From positions 1 through 64,000 of the IMG/VR virus record IMGVR_UViG_3300045902_000666: 64,000 nt of DNA. One strand, given 5' to 3'. The stretch is from a virus. The position numbers and the translations under genes are program-made. Shown here piece after piece: positions 664 through 60,486 of this stretch. How positions within the stretch are numbered: position 1 is the stretch's first letter; every line of letters begins with the position of its first letter. The notes under the pieces were generated by a model. That model searched no databases. It saw only the letters and a list, made by a program, of their open reading frames with translations, and was not told the DNA's origin.

Positions 664-776
664 TTTCTAAAAATTATACGCAAATATACAAAAAAAGTTC
701 CTAAAACAAAAAAATTTGTCCAGATGGAGGGATTTGAAAAGCGTTTTTTTGTACTATTTATAGTAAAAATGAATTT

Positions 777-3925: not shown

Positions 3926-3933
3926 AGTTTTTG

Positions 3934-4023
3934 TGCACCTAGAGGGATTCGAACCCACGATGGAAGGAAGACCTTCTTCAGATTAAAAGTCTGATGCTTT
4001 CGGCCAGCTAAGCGAATAGGTGC
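3934..4023 (-). tRNA. tRNA-Lys(TTT) with long variable arm
   Basis: CTTTTAA loop; GAAGG-TCTT-CCTTC extra arm. Confidence 0.8.
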
Positions 4024-5781: not shown

Positions 5782-5930
5782 TTGCAGGGATATTTGAAGA
5801 GAAATTTTTTTAGCGCTCTAACCAACTGAGCTACGGAGTCCATAATTTTTTTTATTGGGACCTCCGATGGGACTCGAACCCACGACCTCTCGTTTAACAG
5901 ACGATGAACTTCTTTATCTTGCCACTGCAA
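5782..5930 (-). ncRNA. Y-RNA (YrlA)-like RNA with permuted tRNA domain (Asn-like)
   Basis: Paired ends TTGCAG/CTGCAA; order is T arm, 3' acceptor, loop, 5' acceptor, D arm; motifs AGTGGCAAG and TATCCCTG. Confidence 0.65.
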
Positions 5931-6049
5931 TTTTTTTCAATATTTCAAACTCAAAGAACAATTTTTTTGCCCATCAGGTTGGATTCGAACCAACTTCTTC
6001 CTTCCGAAAAATATGTAGCTACAACATATTCTTCTAACGAAGAGGTTTG

Positions 6050-6139
6050 CGGGGGAGGTAGGACTCGAACCTACTTTATTTCAATATTTTCAGTCACTGC
6101 TTAACAGGCAGCCGCTAAAACCGCTTCAGCTACACCCCC
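6050..6139 (-). tRNA. tRNA-Asn(GTT) with long variable region
   Basis: CTGC-CTGTTAA-GCAG arm, ~22-nt variable region. Confidence 0.7.
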
Positions 6140-6856: not shown

Positions 6857-6923
6857 AGGGATAATCGAACAAGAGTGTTATTTTTGCTTAAAAGGCGAAG
6901 TAACCCTTTTTATCTTGCCACTG
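6857..6923 (-). ncRNA. minimal member of the AGTGGCAAG..GTTACTTCG..TATCCCT RNA family
   Basis: Same end motifs as 5782-5930 with no tRNA domain; GC-CTTTTAA-GC mini hairpin. Confidence 0.55.
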
Positions 6924-7321: not shown

Positions 7322-7426
7322 TCATGATTTGTTACCTACATACCCGAATTCCACAACGTGTTTATTAATATTCGTATTGAATATCGTTGTGTTTTTATTA
7401 ATGGTATGTTTTTTAGTTACAAACAT
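7322..7426 (-). CDS. leader peptide 1, MFVTKKHTINKNTTIFNTNINKHVVEFGYVGNKS
   Basis: Lies between promoter and terminator; 19 of codons 4-23 are T/K/H/I/N. Confidence 0.8.
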   Translation of the reverse strand: MFVTKKHTINKNTTIFNTNINKHVVEFGYVGNKS

Positions 7427-7450: not shown

Positions 7451-7510
7451 TAAATAGTTAAAAATTTTCTTTTTCGTGAACAATTGTACGCAAAGATATG
7501 AAAAAGGTTC
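7451..7510 (-). promoter_or_regulatory. promoter block of tRNA operon 1
   Basis: GAAC-N16-CGTACAA, TATCTTTG and CTATTTA; 7451-7494 matches 30953-30996 at 43 of 44 nt. Confidence 0.75.
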
Positions 7511-17789: not shown

Positions 17790-18595
17790 AGTAATAAGTC
17801 TGAGATTACAACTCATTATAACGGTCTTTGCTAAGATTATCCCTTTTGTGGTTCCTTAGGCTATCCACAATCCTTTCGGATTGTATCCGTCAGTCACGAT
17901 TACTTACGGTAATCAATCTTGTCGTCAAGCTTACTCTACAGCTACTTAACCTACACCTGTACGGCCATACCGATGCATGCCTTTCACGATAATCGTCATC
18001 TCTCTTGCGGAAAGACAACTCCCTAATTCGTATTGCTACGTTAGGGTCTGAGTGACCTTTCAGCTCCAACGCCCATAAGTCTTGGGCGATAATTAATTAA
18101 ATGTAATTGCCTAACATTTTTTTAAAATGTAAGATGTAATGATAATTGCAAAGAGAGACGTGCTTATGGGTGTCAGCTCAATTCCGTTGCCAGAACCAAA
18201 TACTGATACGCCCCTCTGTGAACTTTAGCATGTTCACCCTCAACCCCGATTACTTTTTTACTTGTCTGCTCTTCCGAACCTACAGAGGTCTTTAATAACC
18301 GAAAAAAGGCAAGTGACACAAAGCATTCAGTTTGCTAAACCTCACACTTTATATCTCGGATTTTCTTGTTGACCCATTTCTAAGCCTCAATCACCAGCTA
18401 TCACTACTGATGATGAATCGGAAGCCGTTCTGACGTTCCTATCATACTATCCTAATGTCTAGATGTCCTATTTGGTTTGCACCAACAAGGCGAAAGTTTG
18501 CACCTCCCTTTTATTCCCTATTACTAGAGTTTATCTTCTCTTGCGAGCTTGTCTGAACTTTCGTTCAAACGTGACCCTAAACAGCCACAAATATC
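17790..18595 (-). ncRNA. large structured ncRNA, GOLLD-like
   Basis: ~800 nt, no credible ORF, GC-richer, many GNRA-capped hairpins, own promoter, boxA-like motif and terminator, next to a tRNA. Confidence 0.65.
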
Positions 18596-18693
18596 TTAAC
18601 TCAAAGAACTTTCTAAAATTATGTTGCAAACATAATAACTTGCAAAATAAAAGTCAAGTTTTTTTTAAAAAAAATTGAAAAAAAATTTTTTGC

Positions 18694-18767
18694 CCGCCCC
18701 AGTAGGCCTCGAACCCACGACCCTCGGACCTAGGAGACCGATGCTCTACCAACTGAGCTATGGGGGG
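18694..18767 (-). tRNA. tRNA-like gene with enlarged anticodon loop (Arg-CCT?)
   Basis: Normal D and T arms; loop CTCCTAGG. Confidence 0.6.
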
Positions 18768-18772
18768 AATTG

Positions 18773-25533: not shown

Positions 25534-25610
25534 AGTAAGTGATGGGGCTAGAACCCACGACCTTCTTAATGGCAATCAGATGCTCTAAGCCAAAACTGAG
25601 CTACACTTAC
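25534..25610 (-). tRNA. tRNA-Gly(GCC), somewhat degenerate
   Basis: TTGCCAT loop; T-loop TTCTAGC. Confidence 0.65.
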
Positions 25611-26356: not shown

Positions 26357-26488
26357 AAAACAGGGTTAGGTGAGTAGTGTGTTTTTTGGTGATTTATCCG
26401 GGAGTTTAACCCAGACCTTTTTCTGGAAATGAAAATGCTCTTCACAGAGCTTATAAATCGAAGTAACACTATTTCTTGCCACTGTTTT
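26357..26488 (-). ncRNA. member of the Y-RNA-like family with degenerate T arm
   Basis: AAAACAGTGGCAAG..GTTACTTCG..AACCCTGTTTT. Confidence 0.55.
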
Positions 26489-26574: not shown

Positions 26575-26745
26575 AATGTAGGGATTTTTTTCGAAATGTA
26601 TTTTTTCTAAGCTGGGTTTAACCACTCCCCTACCTCCCCATTTGTAAATTTATAAATTGCGGGGAGGGCTGGATTCGAACCAACGTAGAGCCTAAGCTCG
26701 GCTGCTTTACATGCACGAAGTAACAATTCAAATTGCCACTACATT
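26575..26745 (-). ncRNA. Y-RNA-like RNA with permuted tRNA-Tyr-like domain
   Basis: Paired ends AATGTAG/CTACATT; GTA loop, variable arm, T arm, CCTCCCC-loop-GGGGAGG, then D arm. Confidence 0.65.
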
Positions 26746-30292: not shown

Positions 30293-30314
30293 AAAACTGA
30301 CACTTCAAACTTTA

Positions 30315-30400
30315 CCCAGATGATGGGGCTCGAACCCACGACCCTCGGCCTACCTACGCAAATGCTTTTACCGATGCTCTCCCGACTGAGCTACACCCAG
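30315..30400 (-). ncRNA. tRNA-like RNA with a ~20-nt expanded anticodon loop
   Basis: Normal D and T arms; no 7-nt anticodon loop. Confidence 0.55.
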
Positions 30401-30600
30401 AGTTATCCATGTCTTACTCAAATAACTACTCCCTCTTTTTACTTAGTTGTTTTTACTTACAATCTATTTTACCAAACCTGTCCAGACCCTTCCTCTGGCT
30501 CTTGGTTTTTTTAGCCTTTGCGTGTGTTATTTGATAAACATCAAAAGCTTTCATTACAACCTTTCATTAGAGCGCTTTCGCTACTCTTTCAAAATCACTG

Positions 30601-30731
30601 CTGGGGGCCCAAGACTCGAACTTGGACTACGGCTTTATGATTGCGAAGTAACTCTTTTACATCGCCACTGTTTGCCAGGGATAATTTGCCTAGAGTATGT
30701 TTTACGTGTGCTACCCTTACACTAACCCCCA
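30601..30731 (-). ncRNA. Y-RNA-like RNA in the opposite permutation (ends at the tRNA acceptor stem)
   Basis: tRNA 5' half, TTATCCCTG-GCAAA-CAGTGGCGATG..GTTACTTCG, tRNA 3' half. Confidence 0.65.
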
Positions 30732-38621: not shown

Positions 38622-38720
38622 TTTTTGTTCTTTTAGATTTTATTCAATCATTATACGCAAAAATAACAAAAAAGTTTCTTATTTACCCATTACGATTTCA
38701 GTTTTTTTGTACTATTTATA

Positions 38721-43714: not shown

Positions 43715-43779
43715 GTTTTTTGTGTTTTATACTTATTATACGCAAATCGTTTTTAAAAGTTCCAATTATTTATAATAAA

Positions 43780-49880: not shown

Positions 49881-50276
49881 TTAATCTCCAGAACCGTATT
49901 GGTCAATCCACTTTTGCTTGCCAGTATTATAGTTATTTTTCCAGTCTATAAATTCTGGATTTATAACTTTCACTTTATCAAACCAAGCACCTCCAGGATT
50001 TAAAGAAAATACTGGGGTTGTACCAAATTTTTTTTCAAATTGATTTACATAGTTTATAACATCATCTTGTCCAAAAACAGTTGACATAGCATCACCTTCA
50101 TCTACAGAAGGAATCATTACTTCACCCCATCCTTTAACACCCCTATTCTTCCAATCAACATTCGCTCTTACATCTGGGAGTTTATTAAATGGGTAGTGAT
50201 TAAGGATTTCTAAACCCTCAATTCCGCCAGCATTTTGCTGCTCCAACATCTCTCTGATAATTTTTCTAATTTTCAT
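49881..50276 (-). CDS. putative virion-internal protein
   Basis: MKIRKIIREMLE. Confidence 0.65.
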   Translation of the reverse strand: MKIRKIIREMLEQQNAGGIEGLEILNHYPFNKLPDVRANVDWKNRGVKGWGEVMIPSVDEGDAMSTVFGQDDVINYVNQFEKKFGTTPVFSLNPGGAWFDKVKVINPEFIDWKNNYNTGKQKWIDQYGSGD

Positions 50277-50342
50277 AGCAAAAACTTTACAATAAATAGG
50301 TCCAAAAACACAAAACCCTAGCTATTTAGCTAGGATTTTATA

Positions 50343-51050
50343 CTACCAGTACATCCATCTTGCAGAATGACGATGGTTATATCTGTATTCATAATCATCA
50401 TAATCACCTACTTTAGAAAGGTTTCTTTTCAAAGCTTTCTTGTTGTAATTTCTGTCAGAACGAGTAAAATCCTTTCTATAATCTTTAGGAGGATTTCTTC
50501 TTCCATCATACCAGCCACCAACTGGCCAGAACTTTTTCTGACACAAATAACCCTTTCTTTCAGACTCCTCTTTAGCCAACACAGAATCAAATTCTTGATA
50601 GTGTGTAATCCAGCGAGGTTTGATTTTTTCTACGAAGTAGTAGCTAGGAAATGTACATTCATATATTTTTCTGAATGGACTCCAACGTCTACTCCAAGGG
50701 CTAATTGCTGAAAAATACTTTTTAACAGCAGGATGCAATTTTTCATAAGTTTCCTCAGAAATATCTCCAAATCCCGGATAAAGATATTCGTATTTTCCTT
50801 TGCTTAATTTTGTTCTGAAGGATTTATCTTTACAAAAAACCCTGTGTCCAACAAGTTTTAAGCATTCATAAAATACCCAAGCATCATCACGATTTTTGAT
50901 GTCTTCTCTAAGGTCATGAAATTTGTAATAGCCGTCTTTGTACGGTTTTTCAAGTTCAACCCAATTTTTATTGCGTTGAATTTTCCAGATTTGATAAATT
51001 TCTTTTTCAAGTCTGAGTTTCTCTTTGTAGAGAGGATGTTTTGAATTCAT
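50343..51050 (-). CDS. basic aromatic-rich protein under uORF control
   Basis: 235 aa; uORF 51071-51115 and hairpin before the ATG. Confidence 0.7.
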   Translation of the reverse strand: MNSKHPLYKEKLRLEKEIYQIWKIQRNKNWVELEKPYKDGYYKFHDLREDIKNRDDAWVFYECLKLVGHRVFCKDKSFRTKLSKGKYEYLYPGFGDISEETYEKLHPAVKKYFSAISPWSRRWSPFRKIYECTFPSYYFVEKIKPRWITHYQEFDSVLAKEESERKGYLCQKKFWPVGGWYDGRRNPPKDYRKDFTRSDRNYNKKALKRNLSKVGDYDDYEYRYNHRHSARWMYW

Positions 51051-51070
51051 TGGCGTTTAAGTTTATTTAC

Positions 51071-51115
51071 TTAAATCGCCAAAACTCCTCCACAGCTATT
51101 TTTACGAATGTTCAT
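51071..51115 (-). promoter_or_regulatory. leader uORF MNIRKNSCGGVLAI
   Basis: TTGGCGATTTAAGT/ACTTAAACGCCAA hairpin ends at the downstream ATG. Confidence 0.65.
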
Positions 51116-51190
51116 AAATCAGTTATTTTTTATAAATATACAAATTTTGTCAATTATACGCAAAACAATAATAAAGGTTCCTTTTTTTTG

Positions 51191-51264
51191 TGATTCCGAT
51201 AGGACTTGAACCTACAACCCTCTCCTTAGGACGGAGTAGCTCTATCCAGTTGAGCTACGGAACC
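51191..51264 (-). tRNA. tRNA-Arg(CCT)
   Basis: GTCCTAA loop. Confidence 0.85.
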
Positions 51265-51265
51265 A

Positions 51266-51550
51266 TTAATTTTGAGAATCCTGAATATCTTTCCAGATTT
51301 GTTTATCTATAACATGTTTTGGTGTTCTCTCATATTTCAGATATGAACACATTGGACAAGAACAAGGAGTGGAAGTCCATTTTAAAAATGTCCACATTTC
51401 CCCTTTTCTAATCTTGTCTCTAATCTCAGCGGAAGTCATTCTCTCCCATCCAAAATATTGATGCTGATTAGCAGGAACCCAAATTTTAAGACGCTTCTCA
51501 AATTTACATTTTTCTTTCCAGCGTCTTTCAGCTCTTTTTAAATTTTTCAT
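51266..51550 (-). CDS. small basic protein with CSCxxC motif
   Basis: RAERR..STPCSCPMC. Confidence 0.7.
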   Translation of the reverse strand: MKNLKRAERRWKEKCKFEKRLKIWVPANQHQYFGWERMTSAEIRDKIRKGEMWTFLKWTSTPCSCPMCSYLKYERTPKHVIDKQIWKDIQDSQN

Positions 51551-51653
51551 TTTACCTCAGATTTTGTCAGAGGTAGAGTGAATTGAGGACTTTCCTTATC
51601 ACCCTACCTCATCGTTTGAGGTAACGAGCTTTATATGTTTTGTGAGTATTCAT
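51551..51653 (-). promoter_or_regulatory. uORF MNTHKTYKARYLKR with four-segment translational attenuator
   Basis: Alternating TACCTC/GAGGTA segments give mutually exclusive hairpins. Confidence 0.7.
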
Positions 51654-51678
51654 AATTTTCTATAAATATACGACTTTT

Positions 51679-52884
51679 TTAAACATTATCCACTTCAAAA
51701 AGACCAATTTTTTTCATACCAACATACAAATCAGACATTAACTTGAAAAACATTACTTTGTTTTCTTCATTGCCAGATATATGATGTGTTGTATACAAAG
51801 AATTAATCTCTTTACATAATTCAACCAAAGCTTGAAATAAAACACTTGGGTTTAGAGCTGCTTTAGCTTTAATATAAGCGTACTTAATCTCTGGCTTGAT
51901 AAAATCATCAGCCGAATGGTTTAAATCAACTCCAGCACTTTTTAAACGAGCCATAGTATAACTTAAATATAATCCGGGAGAATTTTTATGATTCTTCATC
52001 AAACTCATATCAAAAGTCTTATCTGACTTTGGCGAGCCTCCCAAAATATATCCTGCAAAAATGTTATAGGCTAATTTTTCATCACCATTAAACTCTTCTT
52101 TTAATTCTTCCATAAAATCTGAAAGATAAACAACATTACGAAGACGTGTAGACATTTTACCATTTGCAGATGGAATCATTTTATTTGACTTCAATTTAAC
52201 AAGCCCCAATCCTACATGTGTTATATGAGGATAAACTTTATTTAAAAGTTTAAAATGATTCTCTTGTTCATATCCAGTCAAATAAAGAGTATCATCATTT
52301 AAAAGAGATGCCAATGCTAAATCCTGATAAAAATAAGAAGTAGAACCATCTTTTTTTATTACAACAATTTTTTCTTCTCCAGCCTCAACTATTTTTGTTC
52401 CTTCATATTCTCCTTCTCCATCTTTCAATTCACCTCCATATTTCATTTCGGAAGCAAAGAAAATTTTATCTACTTTATAGTCAAAATTTTTACAGTGTTC
52501 TTTGAATTTTTCCAAAGCTTCTTCTTTAGAAACATCACCAGTTAATGTATCTCCAAGCATAGAAACATATTCTTCAGCGACTCCAAGTTTCTGAAATGCT
52601 TTAGCTAAAATTAAATTTGAAAAGTGGCCAATATGTAAATGTTTATTAAGATTTGGGCTGAACCCATCCATGTATTTGAACTTTTTTTCCCCTATAAACA
52701 TTTTACCAAAATCTGTTTTTTCAGTAGGGAAAAAATTGGTGTATCCTTTTTCTTTTTGAATTATAAAATTGCAAGACTCTGCTAGGTTTAAAACTTCTTG
52801 TGTTGGTTCGCCAAATACACAAAACCCAAATCCTTTATTAAGATTAGAAGGTATTACTTTAAATAAACTCGAATCTGTTGACAT
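51679..52884 (-). CDS. argS: compact arginyl-tRNA synthetase-like protein
   Basis: SPNLNKHLHIGH, KKDGS..Y..QDLA, EQENHF, KMSTR, YLSYTMARLKS; true start MSTDSS after the tRNA-like gene. Confidence 0.8.
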   Translation of the reverse strand: MSTDSSLFKVIPSNLNKGFGFCVFGEPTQEVLNLAESCNFIIQKEKGYTNFFPTEKTDFGKMFIGEKKFKYMDGFSPNLNKHLHIGHFSNLILAKAFQKLGVAEEYVSMLGDTLTGDVSKEEALEKFKEHCKNFDYKVDKIFFASEMKYGGELKDGEGEYEGTKIVEAGEEKIVVIKKDGSTSYFYQDLALASLLNDDTLYLTGYEQENHFKLLNKVYPHITHVGLGLVKLKSNKMIPSANGKMSTRLRNVVYLSDFMEELKEEFNGDEKLAYNIFAGYILGGSPKSDKTFDMSLMKNHKNSPGLYLSYTMARLKSAGVDLNHSADDFIKPEIKYAYIKAKAALNPSVLFQALVELCKEINSLYTTHHISGNEENKVMFFKLMSDLYVGMKKIGLFEVDNV

Positions 52885-52899
52885 TGTTTTTGTTTTTTG

Positions 52900-52990
52900 T
52901 ACAGGAGGAGGGATTCGAACCCCCATTGGCATTGCTGCTTCAACTCCAGTTACGGATAAAAGTTTAGAAAACTTCCTCGGTTACACCTGC
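52900..52990 (-). tRNA. non-canonical tRNA-like RNA, TCT anticodon, no D arm, long variable region
   Basis: Same architecture as 2742-2823. Confidence 0.65.
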
Positions 52991-52998
52991 ATATTTTG

Positions 52999-53071
52999 TG
53001 ACCCGAACAGGAATCGAACCTGTGACCGACTGCTTAGAAGGCAGTTGCTCTATCCCCTGAGCTACCGAGCC
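52999..53071 (-). tRNA. tRNA-Arg(TCT)
   Basis: CTTCTAA loop. Confidence 0.92.
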
Positions 53072-53077
53072 ATATTT

Positions 53078-53263
53078 TTATTCATCTTCTAAATCTACAA
53101 TCACATAAAATTTGACTATAGATTTTTCTTTGAGAATTTTTAGTTTAGGATTTTCATATCCTTTTTCTAAAGCTCTCTTTCTATACTTTTCATAAACCGT
53201 ATCAAAATCTTTTTCAATTTCTTTACGTTTTATTTTTCCAATATAAAACATTCTCTGTTCCAT
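53078..53263 (-). CDS. small hypothetical protein
   Basis: Start MEQRMF immediately after tRNA-Ser. Confidence 0.5.
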   Translation of the reverse strand: MEQRMFYIGKIKRKEIEKDFDTVYEKYRKRALEKGYENPKLKILKEKSIVKFYVIVDLEDE

Positions 53264-53265
53264 CT

Positions 53266-53354
53266 CAGAGAGTGAGAGATTCGAACTCTCGCATCGTTTT
53301 ACCGACCTACTTCCTTTCCAGGGAAGCCCCTTACAACCACTTGGGTAACTCTCT
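53266..53354 (-). tRNA. tRNA-Ser(GGA)
   Basis: CTGGAAA loop, long arm, G73. Confidence 0.9.
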
Positions 53355-53365
53355 ATAAATTTATC

Positions 53366-53430
53366 GGCTGAAGAGTGGATTCGAACCACTAAATAGCTAG
53401 TACGTACTTAACTATCCTTCCAACTTCAGC
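53366..53430 (-). pseudogene. degenerate tRNA-like sequence
   Basis: Acceptor and T arm present; no normal D or anticodon arm. Confidence 0.45.
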
Positions 53431-53436
53431 ATCTTG

Positions 53437-53526
53437 CGGAGAGATAGGGATTCGAACCCTAGGTACAGGTTTACCCCGTACAACAGCTTAGCAGGCTGCC
53501 CCGATAGACCACTCTGGCATCTCTCC
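53437..53526 (-). tRNA. tRNA-Ser(GCT)
   Basis: CTGCTAA loop, long arm. Confidence 0.92.
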
Positions 53527-53537
53527 AAATTATTTCG

Positions 53538-53608
53538 CACAGGTGGAGAGATTCGAACTCCCGTCAACGGTTTTGGAGACCGCTATTCTACCACTGAACT
53601 ACACCTGT
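53538..53608 (-). tRNA. tRNA-Trp(CCA)
   Basis: CTCCAAA loop, G73. Confidence 0.92.
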
Positions 53609-53616
53609 ATATTTTG

Positions 53617-53706
53617 CACGTTGGGAAGGATTCGAACCCTCGAAGAGTTAATTACACTCTTTACAGTTTTGGAGACTGCTGCCTTCAACCACTCGGCCAC
53701 CAACGT
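53617..53706 (-). tRNA. tRNA with CCA anticodon and long variable arm
   Basis: CTCCAAA loop; AAGAGT..ACTCTT extra arm. Confidence 0.8.
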
Positions 53707-53712
53707 ATTTTG

Positions 53713-53797
53713 TGGAAGGTGTGAGATTCGAACTCACGGACCCCGAAGGGCCTCTAGTTTTCAAGACTAGTGCAATAGACCGCTCTACCAACCTTCC
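53713..53797 (-). tRNA. tRNA-Ser(TGA)
   Basis: CTTGAAA loop, long arm. Confidence 0.9.
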
Positions 53798-53800
53798 AAT

Positions 53801-54229
53801 TTATTTTTTCAATCTTTCAATTTCTTCTTTTATATCTTCTGTTTTAGTTCTCTTTCTTAGATGATAATATTTGTTCTTATCTATTTTTTCAAAGGGAATA
53901 AACCCATCAAAATGTTTATCAATCTGGTCTGCAAAATGTTCAATCCTTTCAAGGAATGGCTCAAATTGATAGTTAATCGTTAAGAACACTCCAAGTTTTT
54001 CATCCCACTGTGCAAGGCCATGATTGCGAAATCTTACACCCAAATAATATGCTCCATCAACAAGTTCTTCTTTTGGTATAGCTTCCTCAAGAAGTTTTTT
54101 TTCATGAAGCTTTTCTTCTTCATATTCTTCTTTCAAACGCTCTCTATTCTTTTGTGCATTTTCCTTTATTTCGTCTGCTTTTTTCTTACCAAACTTTTCT
54201 ACTAACTTATTATAATGTTCTTCTTTCAT
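53801..54229 (-). CDS. hypothetical protein, first gene after attenuator 3
   Basis: 142-aa ORF. Confidence 0.65.
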   Translation of the reverse strand: MKEEHYNKLVEKFGKKKADEIKENAQKNRERLKEEYEEEKLHEKKLLEEAIPKEELVDGAYYLGVRFRNHGLAQWDEKLGVFLTINYQFEPFLERIEHFADQIDKHFDGFIPFEKIDKNKYYHLRKRTKTEDIKEEIERLKK

Positions 54230-54255
54230 TTTTTTCTTTTTAAATTATTACAAAT

Positions 54256-54288
54256 AAAAAACCCCAGCTCTTTTGCAGAACCAGGGTT
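54256..54288 (-). terminator. attenuator terminator of tRNA operon 3
   Basis: AACCCTGGTTCT/AGAGCTGGGGTT stem then T tract. Confidence 0.75.
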
Positions 54289-54321
54289 ATACTGTTTTAA
54301 CTTAAATATCTTTTAGAAAAG

Positions 54322-54411
54322 TTACGACAATATAGATGCTGGTCCGCTAGTTCTTTTTGAACTCGAACTTGAACTTCTCCAAGACCATCTATATGTTGTT
54401 GTTACTTTCAT
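54322..54411 (-). CDS. leader peptide 3, MKVTTTYRWSWRSSSSSSKRTSGPASILS
   Basis: 12 of codons 8-20 are R/W/S. Confidence 0.85.
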   Translation of the reverse strand: MKVTTTYRWSWRSSSSSSKRTSGPASILS

Positions 54412-54418
54412 GTTTTTA

Positions 54419-54489
54419 TAAATATCAAAAATTTTCTTTTTTCTTGAGATTGTACGCAAAGATAATAAAAAAGTTCTACAAAAGTCAAG
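54419..54489 (-). promoter_or_regulatory. promoter block of tRNA operon 3
   Basis: TTGAC..GAAC-N16-CGTACAA, TATCTTTG, TATTTATA; homologous to blocks 1 and 2. Confidence 0.75.
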
Positions 54490-54496
54490 TTTTTTT

Positions 54497-54763
54497 TTAT
54501 TTTTTTTGCAACTTGTTGATTCCGAACCATTCATCCCTTGTTATTTTTATTACAAAAGAAGTGTTAATCTGGAAAAAATTCTTTATCTGGGAACAAATTT
54601 CATATTTTTCTAAATTAGAATAATATTCTAAAGCCTCTTCTATTATGAACGTAGGTATTAGTTCTTCATCTATTTTTTTCATTGTGTTATTGGCCAAAGA
54701 AGCTATACCATGATACATCATTATATCAATCTTACACGCTTTATGTTCTCCTTTAAGCTTCAT
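54497..54763 (-). CDS. hypothetical protein
   Basis: 88-aa ORF. Confidence 0.55.
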   Translation of the reverse strand: MKLKGEHKACKIDIMMYHGIASLANNTMKKIDEELIPTFIIEEALEYYSNLEKYEICSQIKNFFQINTSFVIKITRDEWFGINKLQKK

Positions 54764-54769
54764 ACATAA

Positions 54770-55057
54770 CTAACAATAAACAGTGGGCGCACCTGGTCTT
54801 CCAGATTTTCCTTGTCTAATAGAACCGTTTAATATATCATTTAACGAAGTGTTTTCTTCGGTAAATGTATTGCAAATAGGTTTACCTGCTGTGCTATCAG
54901 TTAGCAATTCATAAGAGACACTTCTATTTGGAGTTACTTTATTAAAAACTAACTGTAAGTGGTCTTTAATAATTTCCACTTGTTTAGGAGTTAGTTTTTT
55001 ATCTCCAGATAATTCAAAAAACCCTTGTAACCAATAACAAAAATCTGTTGCTTCCAT
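54770..55057 (-). CDS. hypothetical phage protein
   Basis: FCYWLQGFFEL..IKDHLQLVF. Confidence 0.7.
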   Translation of the reverse strand: MEATDFCYWLQGFFELSGDKKLTPKQVEIIKDHLQLVFNKVTPNRSVSYELLTDSTAGKPICNTFTEENTSLNDILNGSIRQGKSGRPGAPTVYC

Positions 55058-55096
55058 AACTTATTTTTTATAAATACATCTATAATTTTAGAAAAT

Positions 55097-55432
55097 TTAC
55101 CTTTGTGAAATATATTTCCAATCATCCCTATCTAAGTTTTTTTCTAGATATTTAAGCGGCTCTTCTGCTAGTAACATCTGCTTTGCATGCCACTCCCATA
55201 AAATGCACTCATCTCCTAAATGAGGATGAGTTGAATTGTATTGCAACCATTTTTTACTTAAACCCCATATGGCTTTCATGAAATCTTTATCAAAGATAAT
55301 TGCATAATAATTTGTGCCATCTAAATAAAAACCCTCATGTGCACAAGGACCATTAAACACCTCTTTTGTATAACCATTTTTTCTAGCTTTTTCTAAAGCT
55401 TTTTCTAATATCTCAGAATTTCTCATACCCAA
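55097..55432 (-). CDS. hypothetical protein
   Basis: 111-aa ORF. Confidence 0.6.
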   Translation of the reverse strand: MGMRNSEILEKALEKARKNGYTKEVFNGPCAHEGFYLDGTNYYAIIFDKDFMKAIWGLSKKWLQYNSTHPHLGDECILWEWHAKQMLLAEEPLKYLEKNLDRDDWKYISQR

Positions 55433-55498
55433 TTAATTATACACAAATGTACTAAAACTTTATAAAAAAATAAAGCCCAGACTAACTGGGCTCTATCG

Positions 55499-56113
55499 TT
55501 ATTTTAACTTCCACTCTAAATACTTATCCGAATCTGTGGGTTCAAATTTACCACTTAACAATATTGGCCCTGTTGTAGCCCAATTAGCTCCTTGGTTTTT
55601 ACCATTTTCATCTAAAATATCCCAATCATAAAACTTCCATTTACCTTCTTTTTTCTGAAGAAACTTCCAACCATTTTTATATTTCTCACAAACTTCATCT
55701 AAATACTTTTGGTCGCTTGCTTTTTTATATGAAATATAATCATCTAGTTCTTCTTTCAAGTCTTTAAAAAAACTATCTATTCTTTCTTGTCTATGTGCCG
55801 GGATAGCATAACCTCCAAATCTAAATTCAAATTTTGATTTTAATTTCTCAAATAAACCGTCTTCTGGCTCTTGATAACTATTCCACTCTAAATCATCCCA
55901 AATATAATCATTTGGCTCTTTGGTCCATATATCCACTTTTGTTCCTTCTGTAGAAGTTATATATTTCCCATCCTCATCAATATAAGAATAAGGACCGTCC
56001 CAATAACCCTCTTTTAATTCTGCAAAAATTGGTACTCCTCCACTCATTCTTACGTAAGCTTCTCCAGAAGGGTCGGCATCTTGCAGCATTTTAATAAAAT
56101 CTTTAGTTTTCAT
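55499..56113 (-). CDS. hypothetical protein
   Basis: 204-aa ORF. Confidence 0.65.
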   Translation of the reverse strand: MKTKDFIKMLQDADPSGEAYVRMSGGVPIFAELKEGYWDGPYSYIDEDGKYITSTEGTKVDIWTKEPNDYIWDDLEWNSYQEPEDGLFEKLKSKFEFRFGGYAIPAHRQERIDSFFKDLKEELDDYISYKKASDQKYLDEVCEKYKNGWKFLQKKEGKWKFYDWDILDENGKNQGANWATTGPILLSGKFEPTDSDKYLEWKLK

Positions 56114-56473
56114 ATACTCCTCCTTCTTCTTTAAAGGATTTTTTTAGCTGCTTATACTTATCTTTTGTTTCTAACATTAATTTAAGTTGAGCTTTAAATT
56201 CCTTTCTTGATTTTTCAACTTCTTGCTGTTCAACAGAAGGAAGGACTTGAACTTTCTTTTCATCTTTTAAAAATCTTTTGTATACAAAAGCTAATAACAC
56301 ATTCATCTTTCTTCTGCTATTTGCTTTCATGAAAAAATAGATTTTATTTGCAAGCTTCTTTTTTGAAGAACGTGTTGCATTTTCTAAATCTATATTTTCA
56401 ATAGAAGATAAATCACCTTCTAGTACAAGATTTTTTTCTGAAATTCTTTTTTTAATTTCAATTACAGCATTCT

Positions 56474-57786
56474 GTGAACTACCCACCCACGCCAGAGGCG
56501 ATGGGTTGGGCTTCAAGGGTCAACGCTCCTACCAACGTAGGCAACTTACCTTGATTTTTCCTATCCGTTCCAGATAAGATATTTTTTAATGCAAATGATT
56601 TAATGTTTATGGCAGCATTTACATCTCTTGAAACTAAACCCCCACACTTAGGGCAAGTCCATTCCCTATCGGATAGGGTTAGGTCCTTGTTTATATACCC
56701 GCAATTTGCGTGTAGCTTAGATGATGGTTCAAATCTACCAATTTTCAGAATGTTTTTTCCGTACCATTCTGCCTTGTATTCCAACATTGTTACGAAGGTT
56801 GACCAACTCGCATCACTTATTGATTGCGCAAGTTTGTGGTTCTTTACCATATTGGAAACCGCTAAATCTTCAATCGCTAAACTATCGTGGTTCTTGATTA
56901 GTTCACTTGAAGTTTTATGTAGAAAGTCTTTTCTTTGATTAGCTACTTTTTCGTGGATTACGGCTAATTTTTGCTTTGTTCTTTTACCTTTATGTTTTGA
57001 GTATTTGCGTTGTACATACTTTAATTTAGATTGTGCTTTACAAAGGTGTTTTGGATTTTCAAACTCTTTTCCGTCAGATGCGACAAGATATGTTTTAATT
57101 CCTAAATCAATTCCAATTGTTGTATTTTCTCTAACCCTTGCTTTTGGTTTTGCATCTTCTCCTGTATCACATAGTATTGAAACAAAATATTTTCCTGTCG
57201 GTGTTCTGCTTATTGTCGCTTGCCTAATCGCACCTTTAATTGGTCTGTGTACAACAATATCAATTCCTTTCCTGAACTTTGGGATAACCAACTTGCCGTT
57301 TTTTAATGAAACATTTTGTGGAATATTGAAACTACCACCGCTTGATTTCTTTTTAAATTTTGGAAACTTGTTTTGCCCTTTAAAAAATGCAGTGTATGAT
57401 TTGTCTAAGTTAGTTATTGATTGTTGCAAAGATTGACTGTTAATTTCTTTAAGCCATTCGCATTCTGTTTTAAGGTCTTTTAACTGGCTGTGCAAAGCAA
57501 AACAACTTAAATTAATCTTGTAACCTGCCCAAGCCATTTGCTTAACTTCTAAAGCGAGATTATACACAAAACGACTTGCTCCGATATGCTTATTAAGCAA
57601 GACGGTTTGTTCTTTTGTAGGGGTTAATCTATATTTAAAAGCTTTTAACATCAATTATAAATATGTGCAAATATATAAAAGTTTAAAGAAACCGCAAAAT
57701 TTATTTAAAACGATTATTAACTTTGTATTAGGTCGCTTTCATCCCACCCACAGCAAAGCTGATGAGTGGGCTTTCGCTCCCTCTAT
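56474..57786 (-). mobile_element. IS200/IS605-family (IS1341-like, tnpB-only) element
   Basis: Subterminal hairpins at both ends; inserted after TTAC; right end TCAC. Confidence 0.85.
56479..57654 (-). CDS. tnpB: TnpB RNA-guided nuclease
   Basis: KAFKYRL HTH, GIDLG, IEDL, Zn finger, RDVNAAIN. Confidence 0.95.
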   Translation of the reverse strand: MMLKAFKYRLTPTKEQTVLLNKHIGASRFVYNLALEVKQMAWAGYKINLSCFALHSQLKDLKTECEWLKEINSQSLQQSITNLDKSYTAFFKGQNKFPKFKKKSSGGSFNIPQNVSLKNGKLVIPKFRKGIDIVVHRPIKGAIRQATISRTPTGKYFVSILCDTGEDAKPKARVRENTTIGIDLGIKTYLVASDGKEFENPKHLCKAQSKLKYVQRKYSKHKGKRTKQKLAVIHEKVANQRKDFLHKTSSELIKNHDSLAIEDLAVSNMVKNHKLAQSISDASWSTFVTMLEYKAEWYGKNILKIGRFEPSSKLHANCGYINKDLTLSDREWTCPKCGGLVSRDVNAAINIKSFALKNILSGTDRKNQGKLPTLVGALTLEAQPIASGVGG

Positions 57787-58020
57787 GTAAATTTGTTTTG
57801 ATGGCTTGATTACTATAATCTAAGCCTGTTTTTTTTGAAGTTTCCATGTTTAATTTTTTTTATGATTAATATTTTATATGCTTTTTTCCATATAAACACC
57901 ATTTATATGGATTTTTTAATATAAGGTCTAGACCTTATAATAACCTTTAAGGTTATAGCCTGATAATAAAACAGGGCTTCTAATTTTTATCTATTTATTT
58001 TTCATAACATTTATTTTTTG

Positions 58021-58091
58021 TGCGAGTAATGGGATTCGAACCCATGAACAAGCTTTTAGAGAGCTTCACTTTACCACTAAATTATACTCGC
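58021..58091 (-). tRNA. amber suppressor tRNA (CTA anticodon)
   Basis: AAGCT-CTCTAAA-AGCTT arm; perfect acceptor and T stems. Confidence 0.85.
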
Positions 58092-58096
58092 ATTTG

Positions 58097-58170
58097 AGCA
58101 GGAGGATGGATTCGAACCACCGTACTTTGGGATTGCGGCCCAACGCTTGAACACGCTCAGCTACTCCTGC
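58097..58170 (-). tRNA. tRNA-Cys(GCA), C at position 33
   Basis: TTGGG-CCGCAAT-CCCAA arm, U73. Confidence 0.75.
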
Positions 58171-58228
58171 ATGGTGGGAGTTGAAGATTCTCACTTCAAG
58201 GTCCTACTTCAGACCACTCCCTAATTTT

Positions 58229-58489
58229 TTATTCTATCAAAGCAATTATCATTTTATCTTGTTCAACAATTTTCAATTTACCTCTAAACATTAAAGAACC
58301 TTTTGTATGCTCATTGCCCGGAGTTTCTTTTGTAGAAAAGCCAACAGTAGAATCTAAATGATTAACATAAAAACTTTGACCTTTATGTTTCACAACCCAA
58401 GGAGCTATTGTAGTATCTTCATTATGTTTCTTGTTATAATGAAATACTATCCTTTGGACAATATTATCTTGAAAGATAACCTTATTCAT
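58229..58489 (-). CDS. hypothetical protein
   Basis: 86-aa ORF overlapping the upstream stop. Confidence 0.6.
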   Translation of the reverse strand: MNKVIFQDNIVQRIVFHYNKKHNEDTTIAPWVVKHKGQSFYVNHLDSTVGFSTKETPGNEHTKGSLMFRGKLKIVEQDKMIIALIE

Positions 58490-58874
58490 TGGTCACCTCC
58501 TTTTCTTTTTTATGAAACTTAGTGTATTCTTTTAAAGCCAATGGTAAATTAGAAACAAGTTTATATGTTTCCTCGTGTGGCTCTAAAATTATAGATGTGA
58601 TTTGATTATCTATATCAGGCTCTGTAAATGCAGAATGCTTAATACCTTTTTCAGAAGCTTTTAATAAAAGTTCCTTTAAAGCATTTTCATCTTTAACAGA
58701 TAATAAAATAAGATAATTTGAATTGTGATACCACTGATAAAAAGCCTCAGGATGCTCATAAGAAAATTGCGGTATCGAGTGTGCAGATTGCACTGCCTGA
58801 TAACCAGGCGTAATATCCCTTCTGGTTACGATAACCAATTTAGGATTTTTGTTATTTGTAGTAATCTACTTCAT
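58482..58874 (-). CDS. Pth2-like peptidyl-tRNA hydrolase with in-frame TAG at codon 3
   Basis: IVTRRD..G..AVQSAH..F.EPD...T; ATG AAG TAG ATT.. in frame. Confidence 0.7.
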
Positions 58875-59116
58875 GACTTTTTTTTTCTTTTAAATATATG
58901 AAAAATTTATTTTTTCAAAAAATTGTATGAACAAAGATAATAAAAAGTTTTTGATAAAGTCAAGTGATTTCAAAAAATTTTTTCATAAAACAACTTTGTC
59001 CACAAAAAACTAGACCTAAAAATGTGATAATCAATATGTTACAACCACTTGTTAAAAAATAAAAAATTATTGCAATCCATGTCGTATTACAATAAATTTT
59101 CCTCACATTTATAATT

Positions 59117-59458
59117 ATGGAAATGTTACTTATACTTTTGTTTTTTTGTTTTTCTACAGCCAGCATGTGCGTATTTTTACACAATTGTATGGAGCCTGAA
59201 ATGGTATTTCGTAGATATTATTTATGGCTAACTTATCATTGGATAAGAAGTTGGCGAAAGAAGGACAGATGGAAAAGGCCTTTTTTAAAAATAATTGGAA
59301 TGTGTGTATTTTGTAATTCTGTTTATATAGGACTATTTTGTTTTACTTTATTCAATATCATATTTTTAAATTTTTCAATAACCAACTTTATATTATTATG
59401 CCCTCTATTCATAGGAACACAACATATTTTAATCAAATTACTGCTTAGGTTAAAATAG
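59117..59458 (+). CDS. small membrane protein with CxxC
   Basis: TM helices; RRYYLWLTYHWI; GMCVFC. Confidence 0.65.
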   Translation: MEMLLILLFFCFSTASMCVFLHNCMEPEMVFRRYYLWLTYHWIRSWRKKDRWKRPFLKIIGMCVFCNSVYIGLFCFTLFNIIFLNFSITNFILLCPLFIGTQHILIKLLLRLK

Positions 59459-59623
59459 CATGGAACTGATTTTAAAAGCGGTCTAAGCAACATTCTTTAA
59501 AATTAAAAGGAAGAAAACTTATTGAATCTCAAAAGAAAAAAATAAGCGAAAATTCTCCTTTTAAAGGAATTAAAAGAAGTGAAGAATATAAAAGAAAAAT
59601 GTCAGAGACCTGCAAAAAAAGAT

Positions 59624-59806
59624 TCAAAAAAGACTAAGAAGCCATCTTTTCCAACGGTCTTTCTTTCTCCAATTTTTTATCCAATGATAAGTTAACCAAA
59701 GATAATATCTTCTTAGAATCATATTTGGTTTCATGCACTCTTGAATAAATAGTCCAAATCCTACTATCGCTAGGGAGAAGAGTAATAAATTTATTTGTAT
59801 TTCCAT
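59624..59806 (-). pseudogene. truncated inverted paralogue of 59117..59458
   Basis: Shares RRYYLWLTYHWIxxWRKKDRWKR. Confidence 0.6.
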
Positions 59807-60486
59807 ATAAATCCACCTGCCGTATTTCTATATCCTCTACATACCATATTTATTTTATTATTAGAAATACCAATACTTCTTTGAACCTCTTGAGCAGATG
59901 GCCATTCCTTTATAATTTTTCCATCTTTATCACATTGTAAAACTGCTATACCTCTTTTGTTAATTAGTGCTTTTCCTATTTTGTTTTTATGTTCTTCTGT
60001 AATTTTACTTCCATTCTTAACTCCAGGTTTTGATTTAAAAAACTCGGAATCTATTGTAAATTTCTTGCCTTTTACAAAAGGTATCCCTCCTGTTTTAAAT
60101 CCATGAGTATTACCTTTTAATTTAGCTGAAATTTTTAATTTTGATTCAATAGACAACTCATTATAATCTCCGCCATTAGTAGAATTAACTAATTTAAACC
60201 CCCAAGATTTATATAGAGATATATAATACGGTTCCCAGAATTTATAATCATCAACTTCATCTAAAAACTCTATTTTTGGTATGTGGTTTTTATCTAATAA
60301 TTTTTTAATCCAACAATCTTTGTGAGTTTGTTTGAATTTAGATTTTTGTATATGTTCTTTAAGCCTCTTATTTAAAGACCTAGATGTAATACCAATGTAT
60401 TTTATTTCATTAGTTTCAGGGTCTATTAAACAATAAACCTTAAACTTAAGCCGCTTTTCCATAGACAAAAATTTTTTTAGTATCAT
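59791..60486 (-). CDS. GIY-YIG homing endonuclease with NUMOD1-like tail
   Basis: VYCLIDP..YIGIT..RL.EH; TAGGFIWKY. Confidence 0.85.
   Translation of the reverse strand: MILKKFLSMEKRLKFKVYCLIDPETNEIKYIGITSRSLNKRLKEHIQKSKFKQTHKDCWIKKLLDKNHIPKIEFLDEVDDYKFWEPYYISLYKSWGFKLVNSTNGGDYNELSIESKLKISAKLKGNTHGFKTGGIPFVKGKKFTIDSEFFKSKPGVKNGSKITEEHKNKIGKALINKRGIAVLQCDKDGKIIKEWPSAQEVQRSIGISNNKINMVCRGYRNTAGGFIWKYK

What the first reader, a model, noticed from the sequence alone, without database searches (positions are those of the whole stretch)
54256..54411. Attenuator 3: R/W/S leader ahead of Ser, Trp and Arg tRNAs and ArgRS
Seen: RWSWRSSSSSSKR uses TCT, AGT, TCA, TCG, TGG and AGA. Downstream are Ser(TGA, GCT, GGA), Trp x2, Arg(TCT) x2, argS and Arg(CCT). 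AGAACTAG and GGACCAG late in the leader are complementary to CTGGTTC(T) in the terminator 5' strand.
Basis: partly seen in the sequence, partly recalled or inferred. Interest (0 to 1): 0.9.

Follow-up and report, generated by a model that had tools for sequence, protein, structure and literature searches.

The report
Leader-peptide attenuator gating phage tRNA genes
A giant phage places its serine, tryptophan and arginine tRNA genes (and an arginyl-tRNA synthetase-like gene) behind a tiny test gene written in Ser, Trp and Arg codons and joined to a switchable transcription stop, so it probably makes these tRNAs only when ribosomes read those codons slowly; this is trp-operon-style control, which I did not find published for tRNA genes.

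Summary
On the minus strand, a 29-codon ORF (54411-54322, MKVTTTYRWSWRSSSSSSKRTSGPASILS) lies between a Bacteroidota-type promoter and a 12-bp intrinsic terminator (54288-54260).

Downstream lie a 142-aa ORF, tRNAs Ser(UGA), Trp x2, Ser(GCU), Ser(GGA) and Arg(UCU), a second UCU tRNA-like gene, an ArgRS-like gene and Arg(CCU). Codons 8-18 are all Arg, Trp or Ser. All 15 such codons in the ORF can be read by anticodons of the array.

Two sister units in the window share the promoter block. Their leaders match their own arrays: T/K/H/I/N and A/P/D/Y/G/M/S.

A search that ignored amino-acid composition found 36 units in five huge-phage genomes and some fragments, and 7 more in metagenome contigs.
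- Leaders match their own arrays in 0 of 100,000 shuffled pairings.
- In each of five genomes the true pairing is the single best permutation.
- Each leader's 3' part is complementary to its own terminator's 5' strand (0 of 100,000 permutations).

Best reading: a ribosome-mediated attenuator that senses decoding capacity and gates the tRNA genes. Nothing has been shown experimentally.

I found no published account. This scan has found the same design before on other phage DNA.

The parts
54449..54490 (-). Promoter block shared with the two sister units: TTGACTTTT...TATCTTTGCGTACAAT. It contains a TAnnTTTG element of the Bacteroidota -7 type at 54464-54457.
   Evidence: TTTGCGTAYAAT occurs 7 times in the window against 0.39 expected and 9 times in the genome. 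It is the only TAnnTTTG in an intergenic position between 54560 and 51100. Promoter function is inferred.
54412..54448 (-). A-rich 5' untranslated region without a Shine-Dalgarno sequence (CTCAAGAAAAAAGAAAATTTTTGATATTTATAAAAAC). It is homologous to the 5' UTRs of the units at 7426 and 30933.
   Evidence: Sequence comparison.
54322..54411 (-). Leader ORF of 29 codons plus TAA: MKVTTTYRWSWRSSSSSSKRTSGPASILS.
   Evidence: It is the ORF whose stop lies 33 nt before the terminator; across the family this distance is 19-34 nt.
54358..54390 (-). Sensor run, codons 8-18: AGA TGG TCT TGG AGA AGT TCA AGT TCG AGT TCA. It overlaps region 1 (UAUAGAUGG 54394-54386 and GUUCGAGUUC 54368-54359).
   Evidence: All codons are readable by array anticodons. 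The 1:2 domain folds at -17.8 kcal/mol.
54331..54353 (-). Region 2: GAACUAGCGGACCAGCAUCUAUAU. It pairs either with region 1 or, through GCGGACCAG at 54347-54339, with the terminator's 5' strand to form the antiterminator.
   Evidence: Duplex 2:3 is -13.3 kcal/mol and the 2:3 domain -22.9 kcal/mol. In folds with ribosome masks, the antiterminator is present with the ribosome at codons 1-18 and lost at codons 19-27.
54250..54288 (-). Intrinsic terminator: a 12-bp stem (54288-54277 with 54271-54260), loop GCAAA, and a U tract.
   Evidence: In related strains, U to C at 54266 turns a G.U pair into G-C.
53801..54229 (-). 142-aa ORF of unknown function between the terminator and the first tRNA.
   Evidence: No Pfam match. 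Matches phrog_18490, of unknown function, at E = 2.5e-6.
52900..53797 (-). tRNA array: Ser(UGA), Trp(CCA) x2, Ser(GCU), Ser(GGA), Arg(UCU), and a 91-nt tRNA-like sequence with a UCU anticodon loop.
51679..52932 (-). Compact ArgRS-like class I synthetase gene. The true start is probably the Met at 52884, because the first 16 codons overlap the tRNA-like gene.
   Evidence: Pfam PF00750 and PF05746, both weak. 641 homologues at E <= 1e-10, many on contigs of 400-680 kb. HIGH and KMS motifs are invariant.
51190..51264 (-). tRNA-Arg(CCU), the last gene before the next promoter copy at 51164-51153. The leader has no AGG codon to probe it.

Best explanation
This is a ribosome-mediated (leader-peptide) transcription attenuator that controls a phage operon of tRNA genes and an ArgRS-like gene.

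Proposed mechanism:
1. Transcription starts at the promoter near 54460, and the 29-codon leader is translated as it is made.
2. If Arg(AGA), Trp(UGG) and Ser (UCU, UCA, UCG, AGU) codons are decoded quickly, the ribosome moves on over region 2 (54353-54331), or region 1 re-pairs with region 2. The terminator at 54288-54260 then forms, and transcription ends before ORF142 and the tRNAs.
3. If any of these codons is decoded slowly, the ribosome stalls in codons 8-18. This could happen when the charged tRNA is scarce through depletion or cleavage of host tRNA, through phage codon demand, or through amino-acid shortage.
4. The stalled ribosome covers region 1 and leaves region 2 free. GCGGACCAG pairs with CUGGUUCUGC of the terminator's 5' strand before the 3' strand is made.
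5. RNA polymerase then reads through into tRNA-Ser x3, Trp x2, Arg and the ArgRS-like gene. The new tRNAs relieve the stall, which gives negative feedback.

Basis of each part:
- Shown from sequence: the ORF, the codon match, the terminator, the alternative helices, the paralogous and orthologous units, and the covariation.
- Inferred: translation of the leader, the kinetic switch, the polarity of the switch, and the signal sensed.
For: 1. Anatomy is complete: promoter, A-rich UTR, 29-codon ORF, terminator, then the array.
2. Eleven consecutive sensor codons are R, W or S. All 15 R/W/S codons in the ORF are readable by array anticodons, and each of Ser-UGA, Ser-GCU, Ser-GGA, Trp-CCA and Arg-UCU is probed at least twice.
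3. Two sister units in the same genome share the promoter and UTR but have different leaders, each matching its own array. MFVTKKHTINKNTTIFNTNINKH precedes Asn, His, Thr, Lys, Ile and Met tRNAs. ...YPVYTVAAPAMGDAGMGYAPDYSKGAGS precedes Ala, Pro, Asp, Tyr, Ser, Gly and Met tRNAs.
4. A search that ignored composition found 36 units.
 - Own-array residues make up 0.44 of leader residues against 0.19 expected.
 - 0 of 100,000 global permutations reach the observed value.
 - The true pairing is the unique best of 5040, 720, 5040, 6 and 5040 within-genome permutations.
 - Fisher test of amino acid in the leader against tRNA in the array: p = 4e-39.
 - The result was replicated on 7 units from metagenome contigs (39 of 100,000 permutations).
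5. Antiterminator evidence.
 - 25 of 35 leaders are complementary to their own terminator's 5' strand at p <= 0.05. The complementary segment mostly lies in the 3' third of the ORF, and in a few units it overlaps or lies just past the stop codon.
 - Own terminators pair at -12.2 kcal/mol against -8.0 for swapped terminators, with 0 of 100,000 permutations as good.
6. For this unit the 1:2 domain folds at -17.8, the 2:3 domain at -22.9 and the terminator at -17.0 kcal/mol. With the terminator's 3' strand not yet transcribed, the antiterminator is the minimum-energy fold while the ribosome sits on codons 1-18, and is lost at codons 19-27.
7. The only further TAnnTTTG on this strand between the terminator and the array's last tRNA lies at 51506, inside ORF 51266-51550, downstream of the main tRNA block and the ArgRS-like gene. 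In relatives the first tRNA starts 6-30 nt after the terminator.
8. Contigs of related strains show many differences in the flanking ORFs. None is listed inside 54267-54442, and a stem-strengthening change occurs at 54266 (the list was truncated, so this is only suggestive).
Against: - There is no experimental or transcript evidence.
- With the whole terminator present, equilibrium folding keeps the terminator at probability 0.85 or higher wherever the ribosome is placed in this unit. The switch works only if it is kinetic.
- For this unit alone the antiterminator complementarity is borderline (z = -1.8, p = 0.05).
- With the 3' strand absent, the 2:3 helix also forms in ribosome-free RNA. The default-off state therefore depends on co-transcriptional order or on ribosome cover of region 2.
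- A ribosome at the stop codon does not cover region 2 in my footprint model.
- Arg(CCU) is not probed by any AGG codon.
- Residues T, K, Y and G in the leader have no tRNA in this array.
- A 142-aa ORF lies between the terminator and the tRNAs, unlike in most relatives.
- The host and its transcription-translation coupling are unknown.
Confidence: 0.82

Rival explanations
1. The switch is the same attenuator, but its real purpose is counter-defence. It detects loss of host tRNAs caused by anticodon nucleases or by phage-induced host shut-off, and answers by supplying replacement phage tRNAs. It would not serve general balancing of codon supply or sensing of amino-acid starvation.
For: - The output is tRNAs rather than biosynthetic enzymes, so tRNA shortage is the only signal that the output can correct (inference).
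- Sensors resolve single isoacceptor classes. Five of six Ser codons are used here, and six-fold codons match array anticodons in 81% of cases against 69% expected (p = 0.005).
- Relatives have nested attenuators for single amino acids such as Gln or Ser/Arg.
Against: - Nothing in the sequence distinguishes the cause of slow decoding.
- No defence or anti-defence gene was identified in the unit.
- Amino-acid starvation would trigger the switch just as well.
Confidence: 0.3
2. The short ORF is an ordinary micro-protein gene, or is untranslated sequence, with its own terminator. The array would be transcribed by constitutive read-through or from another promoter, and the amino-acid match would be coincidence or a by-product of composition.
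For: - The leader is short and has no homologue with a known function.
- No RNA or protein data exist.
- The terminator is strong at equilibrium.
Against: - The match is specific to each array within the same genome, so genome composition cannot explain it (the unique best permutation in five genomes).
- It recurs in 43 units across relatives whose ArgRS is only 40-66% identical.
- The 3' part of the ORF covaries with the terminator.
- The distance from stop codon to terminator is fixed at 19-34 nt.
Confidence: 0.04
3. The leader RNA senses uncharged tRNA directly, in the manner of a T-box, or binds a protein, and translation plays no part.
For: T-box riboswitches are the known way in which tRNA status controls terminators upstream of synthetase genes. 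This rests on established knowledge, not on a test made here.
Against: - No Rfam family, T-box included, matches the leader at E <= 1 or at gathering scores.
- The signal is an in-frame run of codons for up to seven or more amino acids, always inside an ATG-to-stop ORF. A single specifier loop cannot encode that.
Confidence: 0.03
4. The polarity is reversed, or the switch acts on something other than termination. Stalling would reduce downstream expression, or the hairpin would mainly act as an RNA-processing or stability element for the tRNA precursor.
For: Polarity is inferred from the model only. The hairpin sits close to the first tRNA in relatives, at 6-30 nt, where an RNase P or RNase E site could lie.
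Against: - The hairpins carry U tracts typical of intrinsic terminators.
- The complementary segment lies downstream of the sensor codons and pairs with the 5' strand. This is the geometry of classical stall-induced antitermination.
Confidence: 0.06

Closest known systems
Multivalent leader-peptide attenuators of enterobacterial amino-acid operons (thr leader: Thr and Ile; ilvGMEDA leader: Ile, Leu and Val; also trpL, hisL, leuL, pheL)
   Same: Both have a short translated ORF rich in the relevant codons, region 1 overlapping those codons, mutually exclusive 1:2, 2:3 and 3:4 helices, and an intrinsic terminator before the regulated genes. Several amino acids are sensed by one leader. Helix energies are in a similar range (the comparison with trpL comes from memory of textbook values).
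   Different: The regulated genes are tRNA genes, not biosynthetic enzymes. The element is phage-encoded. One genome carries several paralogous units that divide the amino acids among them. The leaders use many synonymous codons that match the isoacceptors downstream. There is no sequence or Rfam relationship.
pheM leader attenuator of the E. coli pheST operon (phenylalanyl-tRNA synthetase)
   Same: Leader-peptide attenuation acts on a translation-apparatus gene, with the cognate codons in the leader. Here AGA codons precede an ArgRS-like gene. Two relatives have a mini-leader with an RNR motif and a terminator directly before ArgRS.
   Different: The pheM system controls only a synthetase and senses one amino acid. 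Here the tRNAs themselves are the main cargo. The pheM comparison rests on established knowledge and was not tested here.
T-box riboswitches
   Same: Both couple tRNA charging status to a terminator/antiterminator choice upstream of genes of the aminoacylation system.
   Different: T-boxes bind uncharged tRNA directly and need no translation. This element has no T-box match, and an ORF encodes its specificity.
Anabaena sp. PCC 7120 trn operon (long tRNA array), induced under translational stress through the repressor TrcR
   Same: An accessory tRNA array is kept silent and switched on when translation is impaired (PMC8421152, PMC10272220).
   Different: Control there is at the promoter, through direct repeats bound by a ribbon-helix-helix repressor. 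PMC8421152 contains no occurrence of 'leader peptide', 'attenuat' or 'terminator'. That control does not distinguish between amino acids.

Membership tests
Leader-peptide (ribosome-mediated) transcription attenuators | A short ORF with a start codon lies between the promoter and the regulated genes. | tested here: met
   29-codon ORF at 54411-54322, 38 nt downstream of the shared promoter block.
Leader-peptide (ribosome-mediated) transcription attenuators | The leader holds a cluster of codons cognate to the regulated function. | tested here: met
   Codons 8-18 are all R, W or S, and 15 of 15 R/W/S codons are readable by array anticodons. Permutation tests support the match.
Leader-peptide (ribosome-mediated) transcription attenuators | An intrinsic terminator lies between the leader and the regulated genes. 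| tested here: met
   12-bp stem plus U tract at 54288-54250, folding at -17 kcal/mol.
Leader-peptide (ribosome-mediated) transcription attenuators | An antiterminator helix excludes the terminator, and an anti-antiterminator (1:2) overlaps the sensor codons. | tested here: met
   Predicted energies: 2:3 helix -13.3 kcal/mol, 1:2 domain -17.8 kcal/mol. The helices depend on ribosome position. Family-wide covariation supports them. For this unit alone p = 0.05.
Leader-peptide (ribosome-mediated) transcription attenuators | The leader is translated, and read-through rises when the cognate charged tRNA is limiting. | not testable with these tools
   No RNA run is listed for this DNA, and no culture or host is known.
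Leader-peptide (ribosome-mediated) transcription attenuators | At equilibrium, a stalled ribosome shifts the fold from terminator to antiterminator. | tested here: inconclusive
   With the full terminator present, its probability stays at 0.85 or higher in units C and B. It drops only in unit A. A kinetic model is needed.
T-box riboswitch | Match to the T-box covariance model (specifier loop, T-box sequence). | tested here: not met
   No Rfam match in 50000-60000 at E <= 1 apart from tRNAs and chance hits. None at gathering score across the window.
Curated Rfam leader families (His, Trp, Thr, Leu and Phe leaders and similar) | Match to a curated leader covariance model. | tested here: not met
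   Searches give no such match at any of the three units.

The most novel reading that the evidence does not exclude
Huge phages carry a modular tRNA-pool homeostat that resolves individual codons. Each tRNA array, sometimes with nested sub-arrays, is gated by its own leader that lists the amino acids, and partly the isoacceptors, encoded behind it. The phage could thus detect which host tRNA classes are failing, for example after attack by anticodon nucleases or after host shut-off, and replace only those. This would be the first case of leader-peptide attenuation controlling tRNA genes, and a sensing arm of phage counter-defence.
Probability: 0.35. Interest if true: 0.9.

Novelty: new variant of a known kind. 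Interest (0 to 1): 0.82.

Why it matters
- Phage tRNA genes are usually discussed as constitutive helpers for codon usage or as decoys against tRNA-cleaving defences. How they are regulated is essentially unknown.
- Here a classical mechanism is pointed at the tRNAs themselves. This gives a simple feedback loop that measures decoding speed codon class by codon class and supplies the matching tRNAs and a synthetase.
- The design recurs in dozens of units in huge phages from many habitats, so it is a general feature of that group, not a curiosity of one contig.
- It makes directly testable predictions using reporters, defined-tRNA in vitro systems and Term-seq.
- It offers a way to read from sequence which tRNAs a phage expects to run short of.
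- It provides compact, orthogonal, amino-acid-specific sensors that could be used in Bacteroidota.

Tried and rejected
- An exact-pattern scan of viral contigs for the shared promoter/UTR block found nothing.
- ORF142 has no relative in viral contigs by the 8-mer method.
- The closest ArgRS relative (66% identity, L003/L006) starts inside the array, so its leader is off the contig, and its record lacks the promoter motif.
The nearest homologues (P0001-P0010, 70-97% identity) therefore could not be examined in context.
- No RNA holder is listed for this stretch.
- Only contigs could be laid on the stretch, and they cannot show RNA ends.
- Equilibrium folding with ribosome masks did not show a switch for units C and B. 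I therefore do not claim a thermodynamic switch.
- A dedicated Arg leader directly before ArgRS was sought in 33 loci and found in only two (L034, L035).
- One unit picked by the composition-blind pipeline was clearly false (L006, a 62-aa ORF). For L041 the pipeline chose a 44-aa ORF instead of MKTTLSLSLSLSLSLSGW. Both were left in the statistics.
- L030's candidate MRIAMLRSRDT... has no terminator, and I rejected it.
- PHROGs and Pfam gave no function for the neighbouring small ORFs.
- Structure prediction and complex prediction were not used because they do not bear on the question.

Full report
**Where the window comes from**

The window is the first 64 kb of a 101,743-nt IMG/VR virus record that CheckV rates 37% complete. 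It is 32% G+C and carries 38 ARAGORN tRNA genes, all on the minus strand. Homologues of its ArgRS-like protein sit on contigs of 400-680 kb, so this is a fragment of a huge phage. Its promoters carry TAnnTTTG, the -7 element typical of Bacteroidota. The host assignment is my inference from established knowledge, not a test.

**The observation**

- On the minus strand an ORF runs from ATG 54411 to TAA 54324-54322 and encodes MKVTTTYRWSWRSSSSSSKRTSGPASILS.
- Codons 8-18 are AGA TGG TCT TGG AGA AGT TCA AGT TCG AGT TCA.
- Thirty-three nucleotides after the stop lies a 12-bp hairpin with a U tract (54288-54250). The terminator scan finds it, and it folds at -17 kcal/mol.
- Downstream, in order:
 - a 142-aa ORF;
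 - tRNA-Ser(UGA), Trp, Trp, Ser(GCU), Ser(GGA) and Arg(UCU);
 - a 91-nt tRNA-like sequence with a UCU loop, which just passes the Rfam cut-off and which ARAGORN does not call;
 - an ArgRS-like gene with intact HIGH and KMS motifs;
 - a 94-aa ORF and tRNA-Arg(CCU).
- Only 2 of 127,936 eleven-residue windows in the six frames consist solely of R, W or S.

**Sister units in the same genome**

The block TTTGCGTACAAT and its A-rich 5' UTR recur at 7494 and 30996. Each copy is followed by a short ORF and a strong terminator.
- MFVTKKHTINKNTTIFNTNINKHVVEFGYVGNKS precedes Asn x2, His x2, Thr x3, Lys x4, Ile x2 and Met.
- MKKVMTYPVYTVAAPAMGDAGMGYAPDYSKGAGSLTIFMTKL precedes Ala, Pro x2, Asp x2, Tyr x2, Pro, Ala, Ser, Gly x3 and Met.

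The sensed amino acids of the three leaders barely overlap (only Ser and Met recur), and each set matches its own array. In a 32% G+C genome the second leader uses GCG, CCG and GGG, codons read by the Ala(UGC), Pro(CGG) and Gly(UCC) tRNAs behind it.

**Relatives**

Using an alignment of ArgRS homologues, I fetched 33 loci from IMG/VR, two GenBank huge phages and 80 metagenome loci. I also took every tRNA-rich region of two complete genomes (482 and 508 kb) and two others.

I then ran a search that ignored amino-acid content. It required a hairpin with a U tract within 1.5 kb upstream of a same-strand tRNA, and took the longest ATG ORF whose stop lies 15-45 nt before that hairpin. It returned 36 units.

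| Leader | tRNAs downstream |
|---|---|
| MKTTLSLSLSLSLSLSGW | L S S S L L S L |
| MRFNNNNQQQYQQNNYSG | N N N Q Y Q Q |
| ...IPQFQFVVPFSG | P F P F V V |
| ...HIHKHQIWH | W H H |
| ...ITRIIRIRRRS | I R R R |
| ...QVQPTQQPDQDPDKG | P D Q D P Q... |
| nested ...YQQQQQQ | Q x5 |

Statistics:
- Leader residues belonging to the own array: 0.44, against 0.19 expected from long-ORF composition.
- No global permutation out of 100,000 reaches the observed value.
- Within each of five genomes the true pairing is the single best permutation (1 of 5040, 720, 5040, 6 and 5040).
- Amino acid present in the leader against tRNA present in the array: Fisher p = 4e-39.
- Seven further units from metagenome contigs replicate the result (39 of 100,000).

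For this finding in particular, the Trp codon moves with the Trp tRNA. W sits in the Ser/Arg leader here, in the H/K/F/S leaders of two genomes, and in the His leader of a fourth. In each case that is the array holding tRNA-Trp.

**RNA switch**

For this unit:
- The 1:2 domain (54395-54329) folds at -17.8 kcal/mol. Its region 1 is UAUAGAUGG and GUUCGAGUUC, inside the sensor codons.
- The 2:3 domain folds at -22.9 kcal/mol. Its helix is GCGGACCAG:CUGG-UUCUGC at -13.3 kcal/mol.
- The terminator folds at -17.0 kcal/mol.
- With the terminator's 3' strand not yet made, the antiterminator is the minimum-energy fold while a 30-nt ribosome mask sits on codons 1-18. It is lost on codons 19-27.
- With the full terminator present, equilibrium always favours termination. 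The switch has to be kinetic, as in the classical model.

Across the family:
- 25 of 35 leaders are complementary to their own terminator's 5' strand at p <= 0.05 against dinucleotide shuffles. The complementary segment mostly lies in the last third of the ORF; in a few units it overlaps or lies just past the stop codon.
- Leaders pair better with their own terminator than with swapped ones (-12.2 against -8.0 kcal/mol; 0 of 100,000 permutations).
- This unit alone is borderline (p = 0.05).
- The only further TAnnTTTG on this strand between terminator and array end is at 51506, inside ORF 51266-51550, downstream of the main tRNA block.

**Other evidence**

- No RNA runs are listed.
- Contigs of related strains laid on 53600-54700 show many differences in the flanking ORFs.
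- None is listed in 54267-54442.
- A U-to-C change at 54266 turns a G.U pair of the terminator into G-C.
- The list was truncated, so I treat this only as a hint.

**Interpretation**

The unit works like a multivalent leader-peptide attenuator, but its cargo is the set of tRNAs that read its sensor codons, together with an ArgRS-like gene. The logical output is homeostasis of decoding capacity: slow decoding leads to read-through, more tRNA and relief of the stall. Sequence alone cannot tell whether the natural trigger is codon demand, host tRNA loss through defence nucleases or host shut-off, or amino-acid shortage.

**Comparison with what is known**

- The mechanism class is textbook: trp, his, thr, ilv, and pheST for a synthetase.
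- T-box membership is excluded, because no Rfam match was found and specificity is carried by an ORF.
- Six full-text searches found no account of leader-peptide control of tRNA genes.
- The nearest published analogue is the Anabaena trn array, which is induced by translational stress but through the promoter-bound repressor TrcR (PMC8421152, PMC10272220).
- This scan has noted the same design on other phage genomes, with the same reading. The present unit is therefore a further member of an apparently unpublished class.

**Verdict**

I rate it a new variant of a known kind. My confidence in the attenuator reading is about 0.8, and the interest is high.

Noticed in passing
window 17797-18216 (-): GOLLD RNA, matching Rfam RF02032 at 187.9 bits against a gathering score of 150. 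It lies near an odd tRNA that ARAGORN reads with a 4-nt anticodon 'ccta' (18692-18768).
   Followed up: no
window 6896-6922, 26459-26483, 26716-26740, 30644-30669 (-); also near 5900-5960 and G000 69223: A repeated motif AGTGGC(A/G)...GTTACTTCG occurs next to or between tRNAs (4 exact pattern hits against 0 expected). One copy lies between the terminator of unit A and its first tRNA.
   Followed up: partly
window 58020-58091 and 58096-58170 (-): A suppressor-type tRNA with anticodon CUA lies next to tRNA-Cys. This pair has no leader-terminator unit upstream.
   Followed up: no
window 56479-57654 (-): TnpB/IS605 OrfB-type gene (Pfam OrfB_IS605, Cas12f1-like TNB domain, HTH_OrfB_IS605). It lies between the genes upstream of this unit and the Cys/suppressor tRNAs.
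   Followed up: no
window 52884-52990 (-): The table-11 ORF of the ArgRS-like gene starts inside a 91-nt tRNA-like sequence with a UCU anticodon loop. Homologues align only from residue 13-25, so the real start is probably the Met at 52884.
   Followed up: partly
window, several tRNAs (e.g. 53616-53706 Trp, 3933-4023 Lys, 6049-6139 Asn, 30314-30401 Ala): Several tRNAs that are not class II are 85-95 nt long, which suggests insertions or introns. Rfam also finds a tRNA at 25534-25610 that ARAGORN missed.
   Followed up: no
L048, L049, L053, L054, L055, L056, L103: In relatives, a second leader-terminator unit sits inside an array and gates only its distal part. Examples are a Gln-only leader before Gln x4-5 and a Ser/Arg leader before S R S S R S. 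This gives tandem, hierarchical control.
   Followed up: partly
L034 and L035, directly upstream of ArgRS: Mini-leaders MIQVRNRNNTEQI and MKLMVNNRNRETDSV, each with its own terminator, lie directly before the ArgRS-like gene. This resembles the pheST arrangement and was seen in 2 of 33 loci.
   Followed up: partly
window 673-684, 38650-38661, 43735-43746, 51153-51164 (-); G000 69223, 75647: Further copies of the promoter block (GGAAC-TTTT...TTTGCGTATAAT) lie before ordinary genes or a Y-RNA-like element, without leaders. This looks like the phage's own promoter class.
   Followed up: no
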